A stretch of 39,665 bases of DNA from Verrucomicrobiia bacterium (GCA_035701135.1 DASSNZ010000420.1:1-39665); one strand, 5' to 3'. Counted from the first letter of the stretch, positions 10,377 to 18,510 are shown. Notes: generated by a model from the sequence alone, not told the origin. Translations and numbers: made by a program.

Positions 10377-12089
10377 TCATTCCCGAACGACTTCGCGCGG
10401 ATCTTTGTCTTCGCGCAAACCAAGGAACGCCGGCTGACGCAAATGACCATCGCGCGTCCACTCGGCAAATCGCACTTCGCAAACCAATTCCGGCTTTACC
10501 CACGTGCAACGGCGCATTTCAGCAACGGTGAGCGCGCGGCCCCAACGCGAATTTTTAGGCTCCGGCAGATTCGCGAACGGACATTTGGATTGCCGCAGTT
10601 TTTGAAATTTTTCGTAAAGCGATTTCAATAATTTCTGATTGAAACCGGTCCCGACTTTCGAGGCGAACATCAGTTTGCCGCGCTCGTAATAGCCGACCAG
10701 CACCGCGCCAAAATGCGAGCGCGTGCCGCCCGGCGGCGTGTAACCGCCGATGACAAATTCCTGTTCGCTCGTCCATTTGAATTTCACCCAGGCGCCGCCG
10801 CGCCGGCCGATTTCGTATTTTGATTCCGCTTTTTTCGCGACGAGACCTTCGAGTCCGCGCGACTGCATTTCCTTCAACACACGCTCGGAATCCGCCTGAA
10901 TGCTTGCGGAAAAACGAATCGCATCGGGCAGTTGCGCGATGAGCGATTGCGCGATTTCCTTTCGCTTGAGCAACGGCAGGCCGGTCAAATCTTTTCCGTT
11001 CAGTTGAAGCACGTCGAAGACGTAATAAAAAATCGGCGGACGGGATTCTCCTGGAAGATTCGCGGCCTGCAATAGTTGAAACGACGATTTGCCTTCCTCG
11101 TCGAGCGCGACGATTTCGCCATCGAGAACAATTTCCTCGGCCGGCAATCCACGCAACGCGTTCGCGACTTCGGGATATTTGTCGGTAAAATTTTTTTCGT
11201 TTCGCGAAATCAATTTGATTTCGCTTTTCCGCTTGATGCTTAACGCGCGGACGCCGTCGAATTTGATTTCATAAATCCACTCCGCGCCTTTGGGAAGTTT
11301 TTCGGAAACCAACGCTTTCATCGGTTCGACAAATTCGGTCGCGCGTTTCGGCAAAAGAGGCAGGTTGAATTTATTTTTTTTCGAAACGCCGTTTTCGGAA
11401 TCGGCGCGTTTCAAACGCGCTCTCGGCATCTTGCCGGAAGTCTGCAAATTTTGTTTTCGATCGAGACTGCCGGCGGGACGCGCGGCGGCACGTTTCGATT
11501 CCGACGTTCGATTGCTTTGCCATTGCGCGTCGTTGTCAGCGGCGATTTTTTTCAGCGAACGTTTGGTGAGCGCGGATTGATCTTCGGCGCGCGCGGAAAT
11601 CGGACGCGCGTTCTCGCCGCTTTTGAACAGCAGCCACTGCGGTTTTTCGTCGCCGTCGCGCGGCCGCATTCGCACGAGCGCCCATTCGCCTTTGAGTTTT
11701 TTTCCGCGCAACGTGAAGTGAATTTTCCCACTTTTCAGCGCGTCAACCGGATCGCCGTCCGCAACTTCATACGAACCGATGTCCCAGACCATCACGGTTC
11801 CCGCGCCGTAATTTCCTTTCGGAATCGTTCCTTCGAACCGCGCGTAATCCATAGGATGATCCTCCACCTGCACGGCGAGCCGGCGATCTCCTTTTCGCGA
11901 CGGAAAACCTTTCGGCACGGCCCAGGATTTCAGAACGCCTTCCATCGCTAGCCGGAAATCATAATGCAAACGCGTCGCCGCATGTTTTTGCACGACGAAA
12001 AAATTCTCCTTCGGCGCGGAAATTTTTTTTCCGTTCGGCTCGCGCGTCCGGCTGAAATCGCGTTTGGCTTTGTATTCTTTAAGGCTCAT
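10377..12089 (-). CDS. ligD: DNA ligase D, 3'-phosphoesterase plus ATP-dependent ligase domains (no polymerase domain)
   Basis: The N-terminal PE domain reads FVVQKHAATRLHYDFRL...WAVPKG...EDHPMDY. The ligase adenylation motif is EIKFDGVRAL. An OB-fold follows at the C-terminus. Confidence 0.9.
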   Translation of the reverse strand: MSLKEYKAKRDFSRTREPNGKKISAPKENFFVVQKHAATRLHYDFRLAMEGVLKSWAVPKGFPSRKGDRRLAVQVEDHPMDYARFEGTIPKGNYGAGTVMVWDIGSYEVADGDPVDALKSGKIHFTLRGKKLKGEWALVRMRPRDGDEKPQWLLFKSGENARPISARAEDQSALTKRSLKKIAADNDAQWQSNRTSESKRAAARPAGSLDRKQNLQTSGKMPRARLKRADSENGVSKKNKFNLPLLPKRATEFVEPMKALVSEKLPKGAEWIYEIKFDGVRALSIKRKSEIKLISRNEKNFTDKYPEVANALRGLPAEEIVLDGEIVALDEEGKSSFQLLQAANLPGESRPPIFYYVFDVLQLNGKDLTGLPLLKRKEIAQSLIAQLPDAIRFSASIQADSERVLKEMQSRGLEGLVAKKAESKYEIGRRGGAWVKFKWTSEQEFVIGGYTPPGGTRSHFGAVLVGYYERGKLMFASKVGTGFNQKLLKSLYEKFQKLRQSKCPFANLPEPKNSRWGRALTVAEMRRCTWVKPELVCEVRFAEWTRDGHLRQPAFLGLREDKDPREVVRE

Positions 12090-12093
12090 TCAG

Positions 12094-12230
12094 CCACAGA
12101 TTTTCACAGATGAAACACAGACCAAGGAGTCCGGCGGTTCACGAGAATTTCTACGCAAATCATTTTGAATGTTCTGCGGCGCCTGCCGCATTTCCGTCTT
12201 GAATTTGCGCGCATCTGTGTGCATCTGTGG
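12094..12230. repeat. Palindromic MITE/REP-like element (CACAGAT-type terminal inverted repeats) filling the ku-ligD spacer
   Basis: Left arm: ccacagattttcacagatgaaacacagac. Right arm: atctgtgtgcatctgtgg. An internal small hairpin is tgcggc-gcct-gccgca. The architecture matches 33928-34080. Confidence 0.65.
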
Positions 12231-12237
12231 CGCAAGA

Positions 12238-13071
12238 TCACGCGGCTTTGCGCATTTTGCGTTTGTGCGCGGCGGGTTTGTGTTTTGCGGCGCGCGGCTT
12301 TTGCGTTTGTTCCAGGCTTTGCTGCAAAACGGAAACGAGATCCACGACGTTCGTCGGCTTTTTCGGCGCGCCGCGCGCGGCGGGAGTTTTTCCGCCGCTT
12401 TCCACTTTCGCGTGAATGATTTCCAAAAGCGCGTGGCGATAATCGTCGGTGTATTTCGCGGGATCCCATTTGTCCGACATTTTTTCAATCAGGTCTTTCG
12501 CCATTTCCAGTTCACGCGAGCCGATGGCCGGATTCGCGGGAATTTTTAAATCGGACGCGTCCACAATTTCCTCGGCAAAGTGCATGAGTTCGAGCACGAG
12601 AAGATTTTTCTGCGGTTTCACGGCGGCCAGATGTTGCCGCGTTTTGATGACGACTTTGGCGATTCCGACTTTTCCGGTTTGCTCCAGCGCGTCGCGCAAA
12701 AGCGCGTACGCCTTTTCGCCGCGTTTTTCCGGTTCGAGGTAATACGGCTTGTCGAAAAAAATCGGATTGATCTCGTTCAGTTCGACGAAATCAATGATAT
12801 CCACGCTTTGCGTCGCTTCGATGTCCGCGCGTTTGAAATCTTCGTCCTTGAGCACGACGAATTTTCCTTTTTCGTATTCGTAGCCTTTGACGATTTCCTC
12901 CCAGGGAACTTCCTTGCCGTCGGCCTCGGCGACGCGTTTGTAATTCACCGGGCTGAGATCGCGCGCGCGAAGCAGGCGGAACTTGAGTTCCTCCCGCCGC
13001 GTCGCGCCGTAAAGCGCGATGGGAATATTGATGAGACTGAAACTGATGGAACCTTTCCAGATCGCGCGCAT
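12238..13071 (-). CDS. ku: Ku DNA end-binding protein (NHEJ)
   Basis: Trimmed to ATG 13071 (MRAIWKGSISFSLINIPIALYGA, the canonical bacterial Ku N-terminus). The C-terminal tail is lysine-rich. Confidence 0.9.
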   Translation of the reverse strand: MRAIWKGSISFSLINIPIALYGATRREELKFRLLRARDLSPVNYKRVAEADGKEVPWEEIVKGYEYEKGKFVVLKDEDFKRADIEATQSVDIIDFVELNEINPIFFDKPYYLEPEKRGEKAYALLRDALEQTGKVGIAKVVIKTRQHLAAVKPQKNLLVLELMHFAEEIVDASDLKIPANPAIGSRELEMAKDLIEKMSDKWDPAKYTDDYRHALLEIIHAKVESGGKTPAARGAPKKPTNVVDLVSVLQQSLEQTQKPRAAKHKPAAHKRKMRKAA

Positions 13072-13149: not shown

Positions 13150-13416
13150 TCAGAAATGCGCGGCTCTGGGTTTTGAATTTTCTTTTCCTACTTTTGTGAT
13201 GATTTTCCCTAAATCCACGTTCATCGCTTTCGCAACGCGCAGGACAGTTTCAAGAGACGGAATTCGGTGTCCTTTTTCCATATAACCAATTGCCTGCTGA
13301 GACAAGCCTGATTCCTGAGCGAGAGCATATTTGGATAAGCCGCGCCGTTCGCGCTCTTCTTTAAGGAGCTGGATAATTTTTTTGCATTCGGCTTCTGTTA
13401 TTTTGGCTAAAGACAC
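13150..13416 (-). CDS. XRE-family helix-turn-helix transcriptional regulator (88 aa)
   Basis: The HTH_3 pattern RGLSKYALAQESGLSQQAIGYMEKGHRIPSLETVLRVAKAMNV. The gene is divergent from the exported-protein gene at 13501. Confidence 0.8.
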   Translation of the reverse strand: MSLAKITEAECKKIIQLLKEERERRGLSKYALAQESGLSQQAIGYMEKGHRIPSLETVLRVAKAMNVDLGKIITKVGKENSKPRAAHF

Positions 13417-13500
13417 GCCAAACAGTTTCTTTAAAACAGGCTTGACACTCCTACTTCCCAGTTGTTACCTAAATGTGAACCTTCCAAAACCACGACAACT

Positions 13501-15420
13501 ATGAAAAAACAACTATTCGTTGGAACTATTGTTTTTCTTTTCGGTTCCATCGTTGCGAATGCACAAACACCACCCGAATTGACCATAACCAACGACTCCC
13601 CCAATTCCGTTCAGGTCAACTGGTCGAATGAAATCGGGACGAGTTATCGAGTGTTGTTCAAAAATTCGTTGTCCACGCCGCAATGGACGCCATTGGAGGA
13701 CGCGTTCTCGGCGGACACAAACGTTTCAGTTGGATTTTCCAGCGCCGATTCGCCGACGGGTTTCTTTCAGGTGGAAATTCCAACCAATAGCGGCATCGCG
13801 ACAGTTGAGATATTCTCGCTGACCAACGGACAATCCGTGAGCGGAACGATCGCCGTTGGCGTCGGGGCGCAGATTGGCAGTCCGCTGATGGGTATTAATC
13901 TTTACCTCGACGATGCGCTGATCGGATACGTAGATTCGGGCGGCGCGGAATTCGACCTGGACACAACTCATTTTGCAAACGGAAACCACACCCTGTATGT
14001 TAGCGCCGTGGACACGGGCAATAATGAAACTGCTTCCGATCCCATAACGCTGGATTTTGAAAATTCGGTGCGCTGGCTGGATGCCGATCAGTTGTTCCAA
14101 TCCTTCTCGCCGATCAATGTGCAATCCGATATTTTTCCCGCCGACTGGACTGTTTTTGTTGAAGACACTAACGGCGCGACAGTGCGGACGTTTTCGGGAA
14201 CCACGCAGGACGGAATGATTCAAACAAATTGGGATGGAAACGATGATAATGGCAATTCCGTTCCAAACGAATCAAGTTATACGATTACCGTAGCCGTCAC
14301 TGCCAGCGATTCCGAGAGCTTGGCAATGATGACTTCCTCGGGCCTGATGACCAGTTCCGGCTTAAGTTCTGTTTCGACGGTAACGAACGGTTACGGCGCG
14401 ACGGAATATATTGTTGACGAACCCCCGCCAGATTCTTCCGCGCTCTATTCTTTAATGCTCGAAAATTATTGGGCGATGCCAGAGAGCGAGAGGATTATCT
14501 TTCCGCAATTCTGGCTTTTGCCTACAAATTCCTCGCCTGCTGTAATAGAAACAAAACTTTCCGCGCGGCAGACGTTTATGAAACAGCACAGCTTCGGCGA
14601 TCAAATGATTGGAAATGCTCAAACGATTTCCGTGAATGGCGTTTCTGCGCAATCCACTTCGGGCGACCTGCACACGGTCCACAATGTCGCTTGGCGGGAA
14701 GCTTCCTGGTCCAGCGGCCAAATTGTTTTGGCAAGGCAGGATTTGGGTTTATTAAACCCTCTTGAAGGAGCGCTGACTGGCTTGTTTTCTGATGTCCGTA
14801 CCGATCTTGAGGAGGCAGGAGTCATTGGAAGAGATCCTTACAACGGAGGTGTTCTCGTATTGCAACACAATGGAGACTTTGATCAGGTGAGGACGGCTTT
14901 GACTTCCACTTCTCCCAACACACGGGAATTCTTTTTCTGGGGGCATGGTTCTCGGGATGGGAATTCGATTGGATTTGCAGGGGGAATTCCAAATGACGGA
15001 ATTCTTGCACGCGACCTTGATTCCTTGCTTGGCAATTTTGTTTCACCGGCACGCAATGGACAACCGATGAAAATCGGAACACATAAGCCTTTTGATTTCG
15101 TCTTTTTGGATGGTTGCATGACAGGCAGAGGTAATCTCCCGGAGGCGTTTGGAATTCCCAAAGCCGTTCCCGGCGCGAGCTATGTGCGACTGAATATTCA
15201 CAAGCGAGCTTTTATGGGATGGGGCGGGCACGTAACCGATTCGATTATTGATAGCGATCATTTCAATTGGTCCAAGGCTTTTTGGGATGAATGGCTAACG
15301 GATGATCCTAACACCGTCACAGTGAGGCAAGCCGTTGACGATGCAACAGTCACTTACCCGTCGGCCGGAGCAACAGGCATGTTAATTAGCGGCAGTGAAG
15401 ATCTGACGTGGAAAAATTAG
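13501..15420 (+). CDS. Exported multidomain protein: signal peptide, FN3/Ig-like modules, a FlgD-Ig-like module, and a C-terminal CHAT/clan-CD-like putative cysteine peptidase domain
   Basis: Trimmed to ATG 13501 (MKKQLFVGTIVFLFGSIVANA). The beta-sandwich-like segments are VQVNWSNEIGTSYRVLF...GFFQVEI, HFANGNHTLYVSAVDTGNNE and NWDGNDDNGNSVPNESSYTITV. The C-terminal part carries FFFWGHGSRDG (His codon 14944-14946) and FVFLDGCMTG (Cys codon 15115-15117). Confidence 0.7.
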   Translation: MKKQLFVGTIVFLFGSIVANAQTPPELTITNDSPNSVQVNWSNEIGTSYRVLFKNSLSTPQWTPLEDAFSADTNVSVGFSSADSPTGFFQVEIPTNSGIATVEIFSLTNGQSVSGTIAVGVGAQIGSPLMGINLYLDDALIGYVDSGGAEFDLDTTHFANGNHTLYVSAVDTGNNETASDPITLDFENSVRWLDADQLFQSFSPINVQSDIFPADWTVFVEDTNGATVRTFSGTTQDGMIQTNWDGNDDNGNSVPNESSYTITVAVTASDSESLAMMTSSGLMTSSGLSSVSTVTNGYGATEYIVDEPPPDSSALYSLMLENYWAMPESERIIFPQFWLLPTNSSPAVIETKLSARQTFMKQHSFGDQMIGNAQTISVNGVSAQSTSGDLHTVHNVAWREASWSSGQIVLARQDLGLLNPLEGALTGLFSDVRTDLEEAGVIGRDPYNGGVLVLQHNGDFDQVRTALTSTSPNTREFFFWGHGSRDGNSIGFAGGIPNDGILARDLDSLLGNFVSPARNGQPMKIGTHKPFDFVFLDGCMTGRGNLPEAFGIPKAVPGASYVRLNIHKRAFMGWGGHVTDSIIDSDHFNWSKAFWDEWLTDDPNTVTVRQAVDDATVTYPSAGATGMLISGSEDLTWKN

Positions 15421-16094
15421 TGAAAACTACTTTGTTGGCTTCGATCGTTTTGCTGGCGATGATTTATTCAGTCATCGCTGGCGAAAACGAGAATTTATTC
15501 CTGAATCAAACGATGGTTCCGTTGGTAAGACAATTCGTGAAGCAAAATCGGCTTGCAGAAACAAACTTAAGCACAAATGACATCATAAAATATAGGGTCA
15601 CTTTTTTTAAAGAAGAACGATCTGGATGTTTAGCAAATCTCAAGTTGAAATGCGGCTACTTTTTTGATGTCTGGTCTGACGGAACTAACGCCGAGGTGCG
15701 TGACTTTGGCGACGCAAACGTCAGGACATATTACAATCTGTCGGATGCGCCGAAAGAAAAAATAGAAGCCGTCAAAAAACTTAACTTGAGCAATAAACTG
15801 AATGAGAAAACAGCTTTGGAGTTGGCGGAAAAGTTTTTTGAATTACAAGGACATAAAAAATCAAATTTCCACTCACCGGAGATTCACCAGTGCAATTGGG
15901 TAGGAACCGATGCTGAAGGTTGGGGTCCGTTGCCATATTACCAGATCAAGTGGTATCGAAAGGATGTGACGCAAACGGAGCGAGAATCAGGGCTTTCAAC
16001 CGTTCCGGAAATCGTTATCGAAGTATCTGGCGTCACATCAAATCTGGTCGCGTATCACAAGTATGGTTCCCTGCCTATCGGCAAAGATTTCTAA
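15408..16094 (+). CDS. Exported hypothetical protein (228 aa)
   Basis: GTG start at 15408 overlaps the upstream stop by 13 nt. The signal peptide is LLASIVLLAMIYSVIAGE. The sequence is AT-rich and lysine-rich, and I recognise no family. The C-terminal helix + beta segment (ALELAEKFFELQG...YYQIKWYRKD...IVIEVSG) is vaguely PepSY-like. Confidence 0.6.
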   Translation: MEKLVKTTLLASIVLLAMIYSVIAGENENLFLNQTMVPLVRQFVKQNRLAETNLSTNDIIKYRVTFFKEERSGCLANLKLKCGYFFDVWSDGTNAEVRDFGDANVRTYYNLSDAPKEKIEAVKKLNLSNKLNEKTALELAEKFFELQGHKKSNFHSPEIHQCNWVGTDAEGWGPLPYYQIKWYRKDVTQTERESGLSTVPEIVIEVSGVTSNLVAYHKYGSLPIGKDF

Positions 16095-16107
16095 AACCAA
16101 CCGCATT

Positions 16108-16692
16108 ATGAAACCCGGCAAGCGACTGATTTTGCGAATTATTCTCGATTCGGTTCTGTGCCTCATAATCGTGGTCGAAATTTTGTTTGGGTATCCTTAC
16201 AGCTATCTGAACAGTGACGATACGATCAGCAATCTTTGGGTTCTTTGCGGACCTTTTGCCGCAACTCATCACAAGCTGTTCTTTTGCAGTCTGGGTTTGC
16301 TGATTGGCGGAATTATCGGCGGACTTGTCGGAAGCAGGACGTGGCCGTGGAGGTTCGGTTTTGGATGCGCTCTGTTATTTATTGCCGGGATTGCGCTTGG
16401 AATCAGGCATACGCTGGTTCGCACTAAACCGGTTGTGGAAGCAAATCAGGCACAAATGGAATTTCTGATTGAAGAGCAAACAGCGTTTGAAAGGTATCTC
16501 GCATTGAAATCCATGGATGAGGGAACAAATGCGCTGGAGAAATTTCGGATTCAAAGCCGCGCGGCTCTCACCAACTTTCTTCTCCAGGCGGATCAGTTTA
16601 AAGGAGTGATTTATGGGACATTAAATACCAAGGAATGGGTCACAAATTCTGGATCATACACGGTGATCAAAAAATATCTGGCTGAACATTGA
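16108..16692 (+). CDS. Hypothetical integral membrane protein (about 3-4 TM) with a C-terminal soluble helical domain
   Basis: Trimmed to ATG 16108, 13 nt after the upstream stop. Hydrophobic segments: ILDSVLCLIIVVEILFG, LFFCSLGLLIGGIIGGLVG, FGFGCALLFIAGIALGI. Confidence 0.6.
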   Translation: MKPGKRLILRIILDSVLCLIIVVEILFGYPYSYLNSDDTISNLWVLCGPFAATHHKLFFCSLGLLIGGIIGGLVGSRTWPWRFGFGCALLFIAGIALGIRHTLVRTKPVVEANQAQMEFLIEEQTAFERYLALKSMDEGTNALEKFRIQSRAALTNFLLQADQFKGVIYGTLNTKEWVTNSGSYTVIKKYLAEH

Positions 16693-16735: not shown

Positions 16736-17704
16736 TTATGTCTTCGGCAATTTTTGTTTCAGCGTGAGCACGGGCGCAAAAAGATCGCCGTGTTTTTCGA
16801 CGCGGCCCAAAACCTGGTCGGAGAGAAAAACCAATCGCTCCGCGTCTTTCTTTTTCAACGCGGTTTTTACTTCGTCCCATTCGACCGGAGTTGAAACCAT
16901 CGGACGCTCTTTGGCTCGAAGGGAATACGCGCAGACGGTGGTTTTGTGTTCGTCGTTCTGGCTCCAGTCCACGAGCACTTTTCCACCGCGCAGGCGTTTT
17001 TCCATTTTCGCGACGACGAGATCGGGCCGCGCGGTTTGCAATTCCTCAGCGAGCGCGCGCGCGAACGGTTTGGTGGTTTCGTAAGTCACCGGCGTGTTGA
17101 GTGGAACGTAAATCTGCAAACCTTTCGAGCCGGAGATTTTCGGAAAGCTTTCCAGGCCGAGCGAATCGAATTTTTCCTTGAGCATCAGGCCGACTTCCGC
17201 GCATTGCAAAATCGTGGCGGGCGGTCCGGGATCGAGATCGAAAACGAGCATTGTTGGACGTTTCACGTCGTCCGCTTTGGACAAAAACGTGTGCAATTCC
17301 AGATCGCCGAGGTTCGCGGCCCAGATGATCGAAGGCAGATTGTTCGCGAGGCAATAATGGATTTCGGATTGGTTGCGTTCGCTCCAGACGGGCGCGGTTT
17401 TGATCCATTCGGGACGATACGGCGGGCAGCGTTTTTCGTAAAAAAATCCACCGTCCACGCCGTCGGGATAACGCTTGAGCGTGAGCGGGCGATCTTTTAA
17501 ATGCGGCAGGAGAACGGGCGAAATGCGAATGTAATAATCAATGACGTTCGCCTTGGTAAATCCGGTTTTCGGATAAAAAATTTTATCGAGATGGGAAACA
17601 GGAATTTCGCGCCCGCCGACATCCAATGTTTGTTTGGAAACAGGCGGCGCCGCGGAAGTTTTTTTCCGGGCGGAAGAGGATTTTTTCGGACGCGCCGCGG
17701 GCAT
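16736..17704 (-). CDS. Stand-alone LigD polymerase/primase (NHEJ polymerase) domain protein
   Basis: IPVSHLDKIFYPKTGFTKANVIDYYIRISPVLLPHLKDRPLTLKRYPDGV and LVFDLDPGP are typical of the LigD Pol (AEP primase-polymerase) domain. Confidence 0.9.
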   Translation of the reverse strand: MPAARPKKSSSARKKTSAAPPVSKQTLDVGGREIPVSHLDKIFYPKTGFTKANVIDYYIRISPVLLPHLKDRPLTLKRYPDGVDGGFFYEKRCPPYRPEWIKTAPVWSERNQSEIHYCLANNLPSIIWAANLGDLELHTFLSKADDVKRPTMLVFDLDPGPPATILQCAEVGLMLKEKFDSLGLESFPKISGSKGLQIYVPLNTPVTYETTKPFARALAEELQTARPDLVVAKMEKRLRGGKVLVDWSQNDEHKTTVCAYSLRAKERPMVSTPVEWDEVKTALKKKDAERLVFLSDQVLGRVEKHGDLFAPVLTLKQKLPKT

Positions 17705-17952: not shown

Positions 17953-18510
17953 CTATTCGTTGATTCCCCAATGGGAAATGTCTCTGTCCAGTTGGACCAT
18001 CCCGGTCAAAGCGGAAAAAGTGCGTTCGTTTATTTCGGAGCCAAGCGCCGGGCCGCCTTCGGGCCAGAGTCCCGGTTGTCCGAAATATTCCATTCCGGCG
18101 CGCCTGGCGACCTGCGCCAGATAACGTCCGGCCGGATTTTCACGAACTTCATTCGGATCGAACAACCCGACCAGCGCAATCGCGCGGGTCTGTTCCATCA
18201 GCCACGATTCAATCCATGAATGCACTTCGACGGGCAATTCATTTCCGCCGTGCGCGGCCACGATAATAATGTCCGCCTGCGCGGCGTCCTTCGCCGCCAT
18301 TTCACGCAAACGCGGAACGGCGAGCACGTCGAATTTCCACATTTGATTGTTGAACTGGCATTCTTCGCCGAGATGCTCGACGAGAAAATCATACGTCCGC
18401 TTCGCGTGTTTGCCGGTTTCAAAATCCTCGTACGCGATGACCACGTTGAAGTTGGAATCCATTCCGGAACCGGATGGACGAAGGGAGGGAAAATTGAGCG
18501 CGCTTTGCAT
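17953..18510 (-). CDS. Hypothetical alpha/beta protein (185 aa; alternative start ATG 18462)
   Basis: Clean ORF with an alternating beta/alpha pattern (NVVIAYEDFETGKHAKRTYDFLVEHLG ... ADIIIVAAHGGNELPVEVHSWIESWL ... AIALVGLF). This is flavodoxin-like or TIR-like by eye only. Confidence 0.6.
   Translation of the reverse strand: MQSALNFPSLRPSGSGMDSNFNVVIAYEDFETGKHAKRTYDFLVEHLGEECQFNNQMWKFDVLAVPRLREMAAKDAAQADIIIVAAHGGNELPVEVHSWIESWLMEQTRAIALVGLFDPNEVRENPAGRYLAQVARRAGMEYFGQPGLWPEGGPALGSEINERTFSALTGMVQLDRDISHWGINE

What the first reader, a model, noticed from the sequence alone, without database searches (positions are those of the whole stretch)
13150..16692. Candidate undescribed envelope module: XRE regulator, exported Ig-like/CHAT-like protease, exported unknown and membrane unknown
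Four tightly packed genes form a self-contained unit. An 88-aa XRE repressor-like gene is transcribed divergently from a three-gene string. The GTG start at 15408 overlaps the upstream stop by 13 nt, and the next gap is 13 nt. The string encodes (a) a 639-aa exported protein with three beta-sandwich modules and a C-terminal caspase-fold-like domain, (b) a 228-aa signal-peptide protein I cannot place, and (c) a 194-aa polytopic membrane protein with a soluble helical tail. A protease followed by a small exported partner and a membrane protein under a dedicated XRE switch resembles effector plus inhibitor/immunity plus anchor logic. The ensemble matches no named system that I recognise. The unit sits in foreign-looking DNA (see the island finding).
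Basis: partly seen in the sequence, partly recalled or inferred. Interest (0 to 1): 0.7.

Follow-up and report, generated by a model that had tools for sequence, protein, structure and literature searches.

The report
Exported caspase-fold protease with partner genes
A small foreign gene island in a soil-type Verrucomicrobia genome encodes an exported cysteine protease of the caspase fold and a partner protein always found just after it; the pair looks like an undescribed weapon-and-antidote (or protease-and-inhibitor) module that recurs across this phylum.

Summary
All four genes are real and sit at the stated coordinates. They form one low-GC island inserted between ku/ligD and ligD-pol.

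Gene A (639 aa) has a signal peptide, Big_7 and FlgD_ig domains, and a C-terminal domain absent from Pfam. An AlphaFold model of that domain matches SAVED-CHAT, a C11 protease and caspases. Its His482 and Cys539 are near-invariant across a family of about 650 cluster representatives.

The conserved core is two genes, not three. A B homologue (224 aa, exported, no family or fold match) followed A in all 22 close loci that retain A's 3' end and downstream DNA. A B-like gene also followed 3 (weakly a fourth) of 5 distant proteins with unrelated N-termini.

Gene C looked like an orphan but is not. Its tail is a domain that elsewhere is fused to B or encoded just after B. The XRE gene recurs in 5 loci only.

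Tandem arrays of A-3' fragments each followed by B, and N-truncated A genes followed by an intact B, resemble orphan toxin/immunity cassettes.

Best reading (confidence about 0.5): an exported clan-CD-type protease plus a cognate periplasmic neutralising protein, with an optional membrane tether and an optional XRE switch. Inhibition, target and regulation are inferred. This is a new variant of a known kind.

The parts
13150..13416 (-). XRE-family (HTH_3) regulator, 88 aa. It is divergent from A and co-directional with ku, which starts 78 nt downstream.
   Evidence: Pfam HTH_3 E 3.7e-16. GC3 is 0.42, like the island and unlike ku at 0.66. It is 89% identical in syntenic L022. HTH_3 genes occupy the same divergent position in L006, L004/L005 and L020.
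13441..13472 (.). Conserved block in the 84-nt XRE/A divergent intergenic region: CTTGACACTCCTACTTCCCAGTTGTTACCTAA. It contains a TTGACA hexamer and is a candidate promoter/operator.
   Evidence: 30 of 32 bases are identical between the window and L022, while the adjacent start of A is only 56-59% identical. Its function is inferred. The generic promoter scan did not flag it.
13501..15420 (+). Gene A, 639 aa. Order of parts: signal peptide, an unassigned N-terminal module, Big_7, FlgD_ig, a Ser/Thr-rich linker, then the C-terminal caspase-fold domain.
   Evidence: There are 74 full-length-type homologues at 37-58% identity; every source name given is Verrucomicrobiae or Limisphaerales.
13501..13563 (+). 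Predicted Sec signal peptide of A (MKKQLFVGTIVFLFGSIVANA, cleavage after ANA).
   Evidence: Read directly from the sequence. Homologues have equivalent N-termini. No signal-peptide predictor was available.
13801..14001 (+). Big_7 bacterial Ig-like domain of A.
   Evidence: Pfam PF17957, E 6.3e-6.
14143..14307 (+). FlgD_ig Ig-like domain of A.
   Evidence: Pfam PF13860, E 2.8e-8. It also precedes the caspase-like domain in many distant family members.
14686..15417 (+). Caspase-fold (clan-CD-like) domain of A, residues about 396-639. The putative catalytic His482 is at 14944-14946 (FWGHGS) and Cys539 at 15115-15117 (FLDGCMTG).
   Evidence: AF2 model pLDDT 80, pTM 0.84. Foldseek against PDB. Both residues sit just after predicted beta-strands. 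His is conserved in 131 of 134 and Cys in 142 of 142 aligned representatives. No Pfam match and no PDB sequence match.
15420..16094 (+). Gene B, 224 aa from the GTG at 15420. It is an exported two-domain alpha+beta protein with a conserved C-terminal tail ...P-I-G-x-D-F-COOH, and is the invariable partner of A.
   Evidence: It lies downstream of A in all 22 close loci that retain A's 3' end and downstream DNA. B-like genes follow 3 (weakly a fourth) of 5 distant caspase-domain proteins. AF2 pLDDT 87 with no real fold match. 26 of 30 sequences end in D-F or D-Y.
16108..16692 (+). Gene C, 194 aa. It has three predicted transmembrane segments followed by a helical tail.
   Evidence: Hydropathy. 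It is 53% identical in syntenic L022 and about 24% in L030.
16375..16683 (+). C-tail domain with the motif ...LK..D.GT.N.... Elsewhere this domain is fused to the N-terminus of B or encoded as a one-TM gene just after B.
   Evidence: An HMM built without any C protein hits window C at E 5e-11, L022 C at 1e-13 and L030 C at 6e-24. The best decoy scores 0.28 among about 1400 ORFs. Occurrences are listed.

Best explanation
The four genes form a horizontally acquired envelope module whose core is a protease/partner pair.

A is exported by the Sec pathway. It carries N-terminal Ig-like binding modules and a C-terminal cysteine peptidase of the caspase (clan CD) fold, with His482 and Cys539 as the catalytic pair.

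B is translated from a start that overlaps A's stop codon and is also exported. I infer that B binds the peptidase domain in the producer's periplasm and neutralises it, acting as a cognate inhibitor or immunity protein. Its conserved, flexible C-terminal ...GxDF tail may be the contact element.

C supplies a membrane-anchored periplasmic helical domain. In other genomes this domain is physically fused to B. I infer that it tethers B, or the A-B complex, to the inner membrane.

The XRE protein probably represses the divergent A-B-C promoter through the conserved 32-nt intergenic block.

Once past the producer's envelope, A would cleave proteins of neighbouring cells or other external targets. 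Cells are protected only by a matching B. That would explain why intact B genes persist next to decayed A genes and in tandem arrays.

Shown: gene order and coupling, export signals, fold, dyad conservation, co-occurrence, the B-C fusion, and the orphan arrays.

Inferred: A-B binding, inhibition, the target of A, the route across the outer membrane, and regulation by XRE.
For: Fold and active site:
- AF2 model plus Foldseek matches to SAVED-CHAT, a C11 protease and caspases.
- His and Cys each follow a beta-strand. They are conserved in 131 of 134 and 142 of 142 of the best representatives of a family of 653 clusters.

Pairing of A and B:
- B follows A in every close locus that retains A's 3' end and downstream DNA.
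- B-like genes, one or two per locus, also follow caspase-domain proteins with unrelated N-termini built from PKD/Laminin_G or Ig_3 domains or with no recognised domain (E 2e-19 to 6e-5). A fourth protein, with PPC/TSP3 domains, has only a weak match (E 0.017). So B tracks the protease domain, not the Ig-like part.
- The stop/start overlap is 1 nt.

Location:
- B always carries a signal peptide, a lipobox-like signal or a transmembrane anchor.

Fusion of the C domain to B.

Orphan-type arrays:
- L014 reads A, B1, an A-3' fragment, B2 (54% identical to B1), another A-3' fragment, then a B3 fragment.
- L019 reads A, B, an A fragment, then a B-like gene.
- L018, L020 and L026 each have an N-terminally truncated A followed by an intact B.

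Rate and distribution:
- At the syntenic locus L022, dN is 0.29-0.35 for A, B and C, against 0.04-0.05 for Ku and XRE and 0.14 for LigD-pol.
- One genome carries several copies (L008, L016 and L021 are all from SMAG_U7763).
- Neighbourhoods vary and some are mobile or defence-type: TrwC, an integrase, type I and MmeI-like restriction systems.
- The island has foreign GC3.

Precedent: C-terminal caspase-like domains acting as toxins of Sec-exported polymorphic toxins (PMC3482391).
Against: - No binding or inhibition data exist, and co-folding could not be run.
- B has no significant structural or sequence relative. It matches no known inhibitor or immunity family.
- No delivery apparatus is linked to the module. 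A has only a Sec signal, so how it would leave a diderm cell or enter a target is unknown.
- The C-terminal domain is not swapped for other toxin types among the 74 homologues, unlike classical polymorphic toxins.
- Pairwise dN/dS is below 1 (0.10-0.24), so there is no direct sign of positive selection.
- Identity matrices for the A protease domain and B do not correlate better (r 0.74) than those for the A N-terminus and B (r 0.80).
- The arrays could come from unequal crossing-over followed by decay, with no conflict logic.
- XRE and C are absent from most loci.
Confidence: 0.5

Rival explanations
1. B is not an inhibitor but a periplasmic folding or maturation factor for A. This would be a steric chaperone, like the membrane-anchored lipase foldase Lif/LipH encoded just after lipA, or a pro-domain supplied in trans. 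The C domain would be its membrane anchor. A would be an ordinary secreted or surface protease used for nutrition or surface remodelling.
For: The genes are tightly translationally coupled and both products are exported. Some B proteins carry an N-terminal transmembrane anchor plus a helical domain, as Lif does. A has no recognisable pro-domain of its own in Pfam. Overall dN/dS is below 1.
Against: Intact B genes persist beside truncated A genes and stand in tandem arrays with only A-3' fragments. A dedicated foldase would lose its purpose there. Two B-like paralogues, plus a third truncated ORF, follow a single A-like gene in L033, and two follow one in L035. A standalone double-B protein sits far from any full A gene in L031.
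Confidence: 0.2
2. The caspase-fold domain acts on A itself or on the envelope. It could be an autoprocessing domain that releases the Ig-like adhesin part, or a sortase-like transpeptidase (as PorU and GPI transamidase are within clan CD). B would be its substrate, acceptor or docking partner, not an antidote.
For: Clan-CD domains do serve as autoprocessing modules of large surface proteins and toxins (PMC3482391). A has a long Ser/Thr-rich linker between the Ig modules and the protease. The domain is always C-terminal to adhesin-type repeats: PKD, cadherin-like, Big_9, TSP3. B has an invariant, exposed C-terminal ...GxDF tail that could be a recognition or cleavage motif.
Against: This reading does not explain why B is kept when A is truncated, nor the arrays of diverged B copies. 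The protease domain evolves faster (mean 45% identity) than the Ig-like part (55%), which is unusual for a housekeeping processing domain.
Confidence: 0.12
3. The module is an intracellular-type stress or anti-phage defence system built on a CHAT-like protease under an XRE switch, as in SAVED-CHAT and other caspase-like defence proteases.
For: The best structural match is SAVED-CHAT. Some homologous loci sit beside restriction-modification systems and mobile-element genes. The XRE protein resembles control proteins and RmrA-type HTH models in PADLOC.
Against: A, B and C give no PADLOC hits. A and B carry export signals, so the protease works outside the cytoplasm. There is no sensor domain such as SAVED, TPR or an NTPase. 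Nothing related was found in viral contigs. Most neighbourhoods are housekeeping genes.
Confidence: 0.03
4. There is no functional unit: four hypothetical genes that merely happen to be adjacent in low-GC DNA.
For: XRE and C are missing from most homologous loci. No known system matches the set.
Against: A-B adjacency holds in all 22 close loci that retain A's 3' end and downstream DNA (L010, a decayed copy, has lost both) and in 3, weakly 4, of 5 distant ones. A and B were the only gene families that recurred in neighbourhood clustering of the first 18 distinct loci. The whole six-gene order is kept in L022. The C domain is fused to B in several genomes.
Confidence: 0.03

Closest known systems
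Clan CD cysteine peptidases: caspases/metacaspases C14, clostripain-type C11, and CHAT domains as in SAVED-CHAT (PDB 8tl0)
   Same: The predicted alpha/beta caspase fold is shared. A His-Gly and a small-residue-Cys motif each follow a hydrophobic beta-strand, in the order His then Cys.
   Different: There is no detectable sequence relationship to any Pfam or PDB member. The domain is exported and always C-terminal to Ig-like or adhesin repeats. It has an invariable exported partner gene. TM-scores are only about 0.45-0.50.
Polymorphic toxin systems with a C-terminal Tox-Caspase domain and a downstream immunity gene, Sec/T2SS class (Zhang et al. 2012, PMC3482391)
   Same: The protein is a multi-domain exported protein with the caspase-like domain as its last domain. 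A small conserved gene lies immediately downstream. Arrays of displaced 3'-fragment/partner cassettes exist. Several copies occur per genome. The module diverges faster than its flanks.
   Different: In the 74 homologues seen, the C-terminal domain is never exchanged for other toxin types. B does not match Imm36, Imm57 or any other Pfam immunity family. Verrucomicrobia were not listed for Tox-Caspase. No RHS, HINT or pre-toxin domains are present.
Protease/cognate-inhibitor operons: alkaline protease AprA with periplasmic AprI/Inh, and staphopain with staphostatin (from general knowledge, not tested here)
   Same: The gene for a small specific partner sits directly next to, and is co-expressed with, the gene for an exported protease. 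As with AprI, the partner is itself exported to the periplasm.
   Different: B shows no sequence or fold similarity to those inhibitors. B is a two-domain alpha+beta protein. B occurs in arrays and survives without an intact protease, which is more typical of immunity genes.
Lipase-specific foldase Lif/LipH (from general knowledge, not tested here)
   Same: It is encoded just after its exported client enzyme. It is anchored by an N-terminal transmembrane helix followed by a periplasmic helical domain, like the long B variants and C.
   Different: No homology was detected. See the evidence against rival 1.

Membership tests
Clan CD (caspase-fold) cysteine peptidases | Alpha/beta/alpha caspase-haemoglobinase fold | tested here: met
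   AF2 model pLDDT 80, pTM 0.84. Foldseek against PDB: SAVED-CHAT E 4e-8, C11 protease 1e-4, CED-3, caspases-1/3/4/6/7 and metacaspase at 3e-3 to 1e-1. TM-scores are modest (0.4-0.5).
Clan CD (caspase-fold) cysteine peptidases | Catalytic dyad in the order His then Cys, each just after a hydrophobic beta-strand, with His followed by Gly | tested here: met
   The motifs are FFFWG-H482-G and FVFLDG-C539. Predicted strands end at domain residues 100 and 157, with His at 102 and Cys at 159. Both are invariant in 23 close homologues. They are conserved in 131 of 134 and 142 of 142 distant representatives.
Clan CD (caspase-fold) cysteine peptidases | Demonstrated peptidase activity and P1 specificity | not testable with these tools
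   This needs enzymology. Arg569 is conserved in 132 of 143 aligned representatives and may hint at an acidic P1 residue, but that is speculation.
Pfam CHAT domain (PF12770) and other named clan-CD families (Peptidase_C11, C13, C14, C25) | Significant match to the family profile | tested here: not met
   No Pfam family covers residues 381-639 in the window protein or in 19 homologues, even at E <= 5. The same holds for 18 distant representatives. NCBIfam gave no hit. An HMM search against PDB sequences gave nothing below E 0.48.
Polymorphic toxin / effector-immunity systems | Toxin domain at the extreme C-terminus of an exported multi-domain protein | tested here: met
   In the full-length proteins among the 150 best representatives the domain ends at or within about 40 residues of the C-terminus, behind diverse N-terminal repeats. 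Many have signal-peptide-like N-termini. That the domain is toxic is not shown.
Polymorphic toxin / effector-immunity systems | Cognate small gene immediately downstream | tested here: met
   B is present in all 22 close loci that retain A's 3' end and downstream DNA. A B-like gene follows 3 of 5 distant loci (E 2e-19 to 6e-5), with a fourth at a weak E 0.017. An immunity function is not testable here.
Polymorphic toxin / effector-immunity systems | Orphan toxin-3'-fragment/immunity cassettes downstream of, or apart from, the main gene | tested here: met
   Seen in L014, L019, L018, L020 and L026.
Polymorphic toxin / effector-immunity systems | A constant N-terminal region combined with alternative, unrelated C-terminal toxin domains | tested here: not met
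   All 74 strong homologues of A retrieved keep the same C-terminal domain. That search is word-limited, so rare variants could have been missed.
Known Tox-Caspase immunity families (Imm36/DUF600, Imm57) | Profile match of the downstream protein | tested here: not met
   Thirteen B-family members scanned against Pfam at E <= 5 gave only scattered single chance hits and no Imm family. NCBIfam and PADLOC gave none.
XRE / HTH_3 transcription regulators | Cro/C1-type helix-turn-helix domain | tested here: met
   PF01381, E 3.7e-16, covering residues 18-70. DNA binding to the 13441-13472 block is not testable here.
Known anti-phage defence systems (PADLOC) | Match of the effector genes to a defence-system model | tested here: not met
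   A, B and C have no PADLOC hit at E <= 1. Only the generic HTH of the XRE protein matches.

The most novel reading that the evidence does not exclude
A, B and the C domain define a previously unrecognised class of Sec-exported effector-immunity modules spread across Verrucomicrobiota. The class would comprise a new clan-CD peptidase toxin family of about 650 sequence clusters, a new two-domain periplasmic immunity/inhibitor family that may plug the protease with its invariant C-terminal ...GxDF tail, and an optional membrane tether. It would diversify by displacing A-3'/B cassettes, as CDI and Rhs loci do, but without any T5, T6 or T7 secretion machinery.
Probability: 0.35. Interest if true: 0.7.

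Novelty: new variant of a known kind. Interest (0 to 1): 0.6.

Why it matters
Verrucomicrobiota are abundant in soil, peat and freshwater, are mostly uncultured, and have almost no described systems for interbacterial conflict or protease control.

If the reading holds, three new protein families gain a function:
- a caspase-fold peptidase domain that Pfam and NCBIfam do not cover;
- its cognate partner B;
- a tether domain (C).

It would also show that an effector/immunity-type module can diversify through orphan cassettes while relying only on Sec export.

The pair would be a compact model for how clan-CD proteases are specifically inhibited. A bacterial protein inhibitor specific for a clan-CD protease would be a useful reagent.

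Even under the more modest reading, a secreted protease with a dedicated periplasmic inhibitor or foldase, about 650 'Ig-like domain-containing' and hypothetical protein clusters gain a testable annotation.

Tried and rejected
- Profile searches. Pfam, NCBIfam and PADLOC scans of B and C, and of the caspase-like domain in 20 members, found nothing meaningful.
- PDB sequence searches. Profile (A domain, B) and single-sequence (C) searches against PDB gave only chance-level hits.
- Fold search for B. Foldseek against PDB and BFVD gave no real match. The best hit was RnlA at E 1e-3 with TM 0.2 and rmsd 18 A. From its secondary structure, a helix plus four strands repeated twice, I suspected a PepSY- or cystatin-like fold. 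I could not support this and do not claim it.
- Insertion scars. I looked for flanking direct or inverted repeats and tRNA genes; only short chance-level repeats and no tRNA turned up.
- Promoter and terminator scan. Counts were no higher than in shuffled sequence.
- Rfam: no RNA family in the window.
- Phage origin: no relative of A or B in IMG/VR viral contigs.
- 'C is an orphan'. This was my first conclusion, from a word-indexed search that returned 2 hits. The domain HMM overturned it.
- XRE as part of the NHEJ operon. I considered this because XRE is co-directional with ku. I rejected it because its GC3 matches the island and a 45%-identical XRE accompanies A-B in L006, where there is no ku.
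- 'Hypervariable under positive selection'. Not supported: dN/dS is 0.10-0.24 and dS is saturated. I claim only several-fold faster divergence than the flanks.
- Mirror-tree co-evolution test between the A protease domain and B: uninformative.
- L010 as an exception lacking B: its A gene is 3'-truncated and runs into unrelated DNA, so it is a decayed copy.

Full report
**What is in the window.** The four ORFs exist as described.
- XRE: 13150-13416 (-), 88 aa, Pfam HTH_3 E 3.7e-16.
- A: 13501-15420 (+), 639 aa.
- B: ORF from 15408 to 16094 (+).
- C: 16108-16692 (+), 194 aa, 13 nt after B.

A starts with MKKQLFVGTIVFLFGSIVANA|QTPP, which reads as a Sec signal peptide. It has Pfam Big_7 (residues 101-167) and FlgD_ig (215-269) domains.

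The window is an entire 39,665-bp contig of an NCBI Verrucomicrobiae MAG. There, B is annotated as VFM25_15590 at 224 aa, and C as VFM25_15595. The 224-aa form starts at the GTG at 15420, which shares one base with A's TAG stop. The same 1-nt overlap is seen in homologous loci.

**Context.** The block lies between Ku (12238-13071, -) with a LigD phosphoesterase+ligase gene (10377-12089, -) on one side, and a separate LigD polymerase gene (16736-17704, -) on the other. So it interrupts an NHEJ cluster.

Module GC is 0.471, against 0.543 for the rest of the window. GC3 is 0.52, 0.47, 0.49 and 0.42 for A, B, C and XRE, against 0.66, 0.61 and 0.62 for Ku, LigD and LigD-pol. All four genes, XRE included, therefore form one compositionally foreign island. 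I found no flanking repeats, tRNA genes or integrase.

**Protein A.** A search of 5.8 billion proteins found 74 strong homologues. Most are 590-700 aa (a few are partial) and they are 37-58% identical. Every source name that is given is Verrucomicrobiae or Limisphaerales. A scan of GTDB genomes found 16 loci, 15 of them in Verrucomicrobiota MAGs and one on a 4-kb scaffold binned as Bacteroidetes.

Residues 381-639 match nothing in Pfam, NCBIfam or PDB by sequence. An AlphaFold2 model built on a 20-sequence alignment has pLDDT 80 and pTM 0.84. Its Foldseek matches are:
- SAVED-CHAT (8tl0), E 4e-8;
- a secreted Bacteroides C11 protease (6n9j), E 1e-4;
- CED-3, caspases-1/3/4/6/7 and a metacaspase.

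His482 (FWGHGS) and Cys539 (FLDGCMTG) each follow a predicted beta-strand. Both are invariant in 23 homologues.

An exhaustive HMMER search of 1.84 billion cluster representatives with this domain's profile gave 653 clusters at E <= 1e-3 and 321 at E <= 1e-10. Among the best 146, His is kept in 131 of 134, Cys in 142 of 142 and the preceding Asp in 136 of 142. In the full-length proteins among these, the domain lies at the C-terminal end. It sits behind very different N-terminal parts: PKD_6 with Laminin_G_3, Big_9 with cadherin-like repeats, TSP3 with PPC, or Ig_3. FlgD_ig often lies directly upstream. No Pfam family covers the domain. Many members have signal-peptide-like N-termini.

I conclude with high confidence that A ends in an exported, probably active, clan-CD-type cysteine peptidase of a family that curated libraries do not yet describe. 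'CHAT-like' is true of the fold only.

**Protein B and the core of the module.** B-related proteins have an N-terminal signal peptide, a lipobox-like signal (LFSGC, LFSAC) or a transmembrane anchor. The B model (pLDDT 87) shows a long N-terminal helix followed by two helix-plus-four-strand units. It has no credible structural neighbour in PDB or BFVD and no profile match.

Of 30 B sequences, 26 end exactly in ...P-[IV]-x-x-D-[FY]. In the model this tail is a low-confidence coil.

By tblastn and HMM searches, a B homologue lies immediately after A in every close locus that retains A's 3' end and downstream DNA: 22 distinct loci including the window. The one close locus without B, L010, has a 3'-truncated A that runs into unrelated DNA. 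In an all-against-all clustering of every ORF in the first 18 distinct loci, A and B were the only real gene families shared by three or more loci. The other recurrent clusters were shadow ORFs inside A or B, plus one generic kinase-like family.

The association reaches distant family members with unrelated N-termini.
- P0123 (591 aa) is followed by one B-like gene (E 6e-5).
- P0161 (1512 aa, Ig_3) is followed by two (1e-9, 1e-5), plus a third truncated ORF that the HMM does not detect (E 0.29).
- P0116 (1108 aa, PKD/Laminin_G) is followed by two (2e-19, 9e-10).
- P0175 (1061 aa) is followed by one weak match (0.017).
- P0231 (1796 aa) is followed by none. Decoy ORFs scored 0.29 or worse.

B therefore tracks the protease domain, not the Ig-like part.

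**Protein C.** The word-indexed search found only one other relative, so C first looked like an orphan. However, some B proteins carry a roughly 95-residue N-terminal extension made of a transmembrane helix plus a helical domain with the motif LK..D.GTTN. In L008 and L011 the same piece is a separate 111-113-aa gene just after B.

I built an HMM from those pieces alone, with no C protein included. It hits the tail of window C at E 5e-11, L022 C at 1e-13 and L030 C at 6e-24. The best decoy among about 1400 ORFs scores 0.28.

So C carries a recurrent accessory domain. It is a separate gene in five distinct loci (three with a 3-TM form, two with a 1-TM form) and is fused to B's N-terminus in three. 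The fusion argues that B and C act together. Because B is extracytoplasmic, the C tail is most likely periplasmic, and three transmembrane segments after a positively charged N-terminus fit that topology.

**XRE.** An HTH_3 gene sits divergently upstream of A in the window, L022 (89% identical), L006 (45% identical, no ku nearby), L004/L005 (unrelated sequence, with a lipoprotein gene in between) and L020. The other loci have housekeeping genes upstream. XRE is therefore a recurrent but optional accessory.

A 32-nt block in the XRE/A intergenic region (13441-13472, containing TTGACA) is identical at 30 of 32 positions between the window and L022, although the adjacent start of A is only 56-59% identical. 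This is a candidate promoter/operator, by inference only.

**Evolutionary behaviour.** L022 is a 4.2-kb JGI metagenome contig with the same Ku-XRE-A-B-C-LigDpol order. Amino-acid identities are 96% (Ku), 89% (XRE), 58% (A), 59% (B), 53% (C) and 83% (LigD-pol). L022's A is also the best hit for window A in the entire protein database (P0001, from a single 4,168-bp JGI contig, the length of L022).

dN is 0.33, 0.29 and 0.35 for A, B and C. It is 0.04 for Ku, 0.05 for XRE and 0.14 for LigD-pol. dS is saturated for A, B and LigD-pol, and dN/dS is 0.1-0.24. The module diverges several-fold faster than its flanks, but I cannot show positive selection. Within A, the protease domain (mean 45% identity across 13 loci) diverges faster than the Ig-like part (55%) and than B (51%).

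One MAG (SMAG_U7763) has three loci.

Several loci show orphan-like structures.
- L014 reads A, B1, an A-3' fragment (55% identical to A), B2 (intact, 54% identical to B1), another A-3' fragment (61%), then a B3 fragment.
- L019 reads A, B, an A fragment spanning about two-thirds of the protease domain (HMM positions 85-262, including the His motif), then a B-like gene.
- L018, L020 and L026 each have an A gene truncated to its last 120-170 residues, followed by a full-length B.
- L031 has a double-B fusion protein among glycoside hydrolase genes, with only a 40-residue A remnant.

Keeping intact B copies next to decayed A copies is the classic signature of immunity genes in CDI, Rhs and other polymorphic toxin loci.

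**Interpretation.** The best-supported model is an exported clan-CD peptidase (A) whose activity is neutralised in the producer's periplasm by a cognate, co-translated partner (B). B is tethered to the inner membrane in some lineages by the C domain, and the operon is switched by XRE in some lineages.

Zhang et al. 2012 (PMC3482391) already proposed that C-terminal caspase-like domains can act as toxins of Sec/T2SS-exported polymorphic toxins with downstream immunity genes (Imm36, Imm57). That is the closest described concept.

The present module differs in five ways:
- the peptidase family is new at the sequence level;
- B is not a known Imm family;
- the C-terminal domain is never swapped for another toxin type among the homologues seen;
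- there are no RHS, HINT or pre-toxin modules;
- Verrucomicrobia is not among the lineages listed for Tox-Caspase in that paper.

I therefore describe it as working like an effector-immunity or protease-inhibitor pair, without filing it as a member of a named system.

The alternatives are set out with their tests in the rival explanations. They are B as a Lif-like foldase, A as an autoprocessing or transpeptidase domain with B as its substrate, and a cytoplasmic defence system. The orphan B copies argue against the first two. The export signals argue against the third.

**Limits.** Export signals and topology were judged by eye and hydropathy, because no predictor was available. The first N-terminal module of A was not modelled. 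Co-folding of A and B was not possible. The taxonomic spread of the 653-cluster family is unknown, because the representative library has no names; the one named distant member is Verrucomicrobiota. Nothing about activity, inhibition, target or regulation has been demonstrated.

Noticed in passing
window 10377-13071 and 16736-17704: The NHEJ genes are split by the island. On the minus strand, ligD-pol (a separate gene) lies upstream of the island, and ku followed by a ligD phosphoesterase+ligase fusion lies downstream. Ku now starts 78 nt after the co-directional XRE gene, so ku-ligD may be read through from the island's XRE promoter. The same arrangement is kept in L022.
   Followed up: partly
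window 17953-18510 (-): A 185-aa ORF directly upstream of ligD-pol has no Pfam match and only a chance-level NCBIfam hit (MioC-like, E 0.045). It may belong to the NHEJ cluster.
   Followed up: no
L001 14135-17917: About 4 kb downstream of an A-B pair in a Verrucomicrobiae MAG there is a WXG100-family gene, several small unknown genes and an FtsK/SpoIIIE ATPase. This is a type VII-like secretion signature, which is unusual for this phylum.
   Followed up: no
L004 1-16000; L002 11172-15800: Some A-B copies sit in mobile or defence neighbourhoods. In L004 these are a TrwC relaxase, a phage-type integrase and a complete type I restriction-modification system directly after B. In L002 they are RadC, an MmeI-like restriction-modification fusion and a Kinase-PolyVal gene.
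   Followed up: partly
L031 3779-5029: A 416-aa exported protein is made of two diverged B-like units. It lies between a GH3-type glycosidase gene and a fucosidase-like gene, with only a 40-residue remnant of the A protease domain beside it. This shows that the B family also exists away from an intact A.
   Followed up: partly
B family C-termini (window 16077-16091): 26 of 30 B proteins terminate exactly at ...P-[IV]-x-x-D-[FY]-COOH. In the AF2 model this tail is an unstructured, lower-confidence segment. Distant B-like proteins have P-x-N-Y-[FW]-[DE]-x-L-G at the equivalent place. The tail may be the element that contacts the protease.
   Followed up: partly
L006 4501-4755: A DUF4258-family small gene (E 1.5e-6), a family I recall as toxin-like, lies about 300 nt beyond the XRE gene that accompanies the A-B pair in this locus.
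   Followed up: no
L020 10402-11367; L021 11906-12835: Two B homologues carry an internal duplication of the first alpha+beta unit, giving proteins of 309-314 aa.
   Followed up: no
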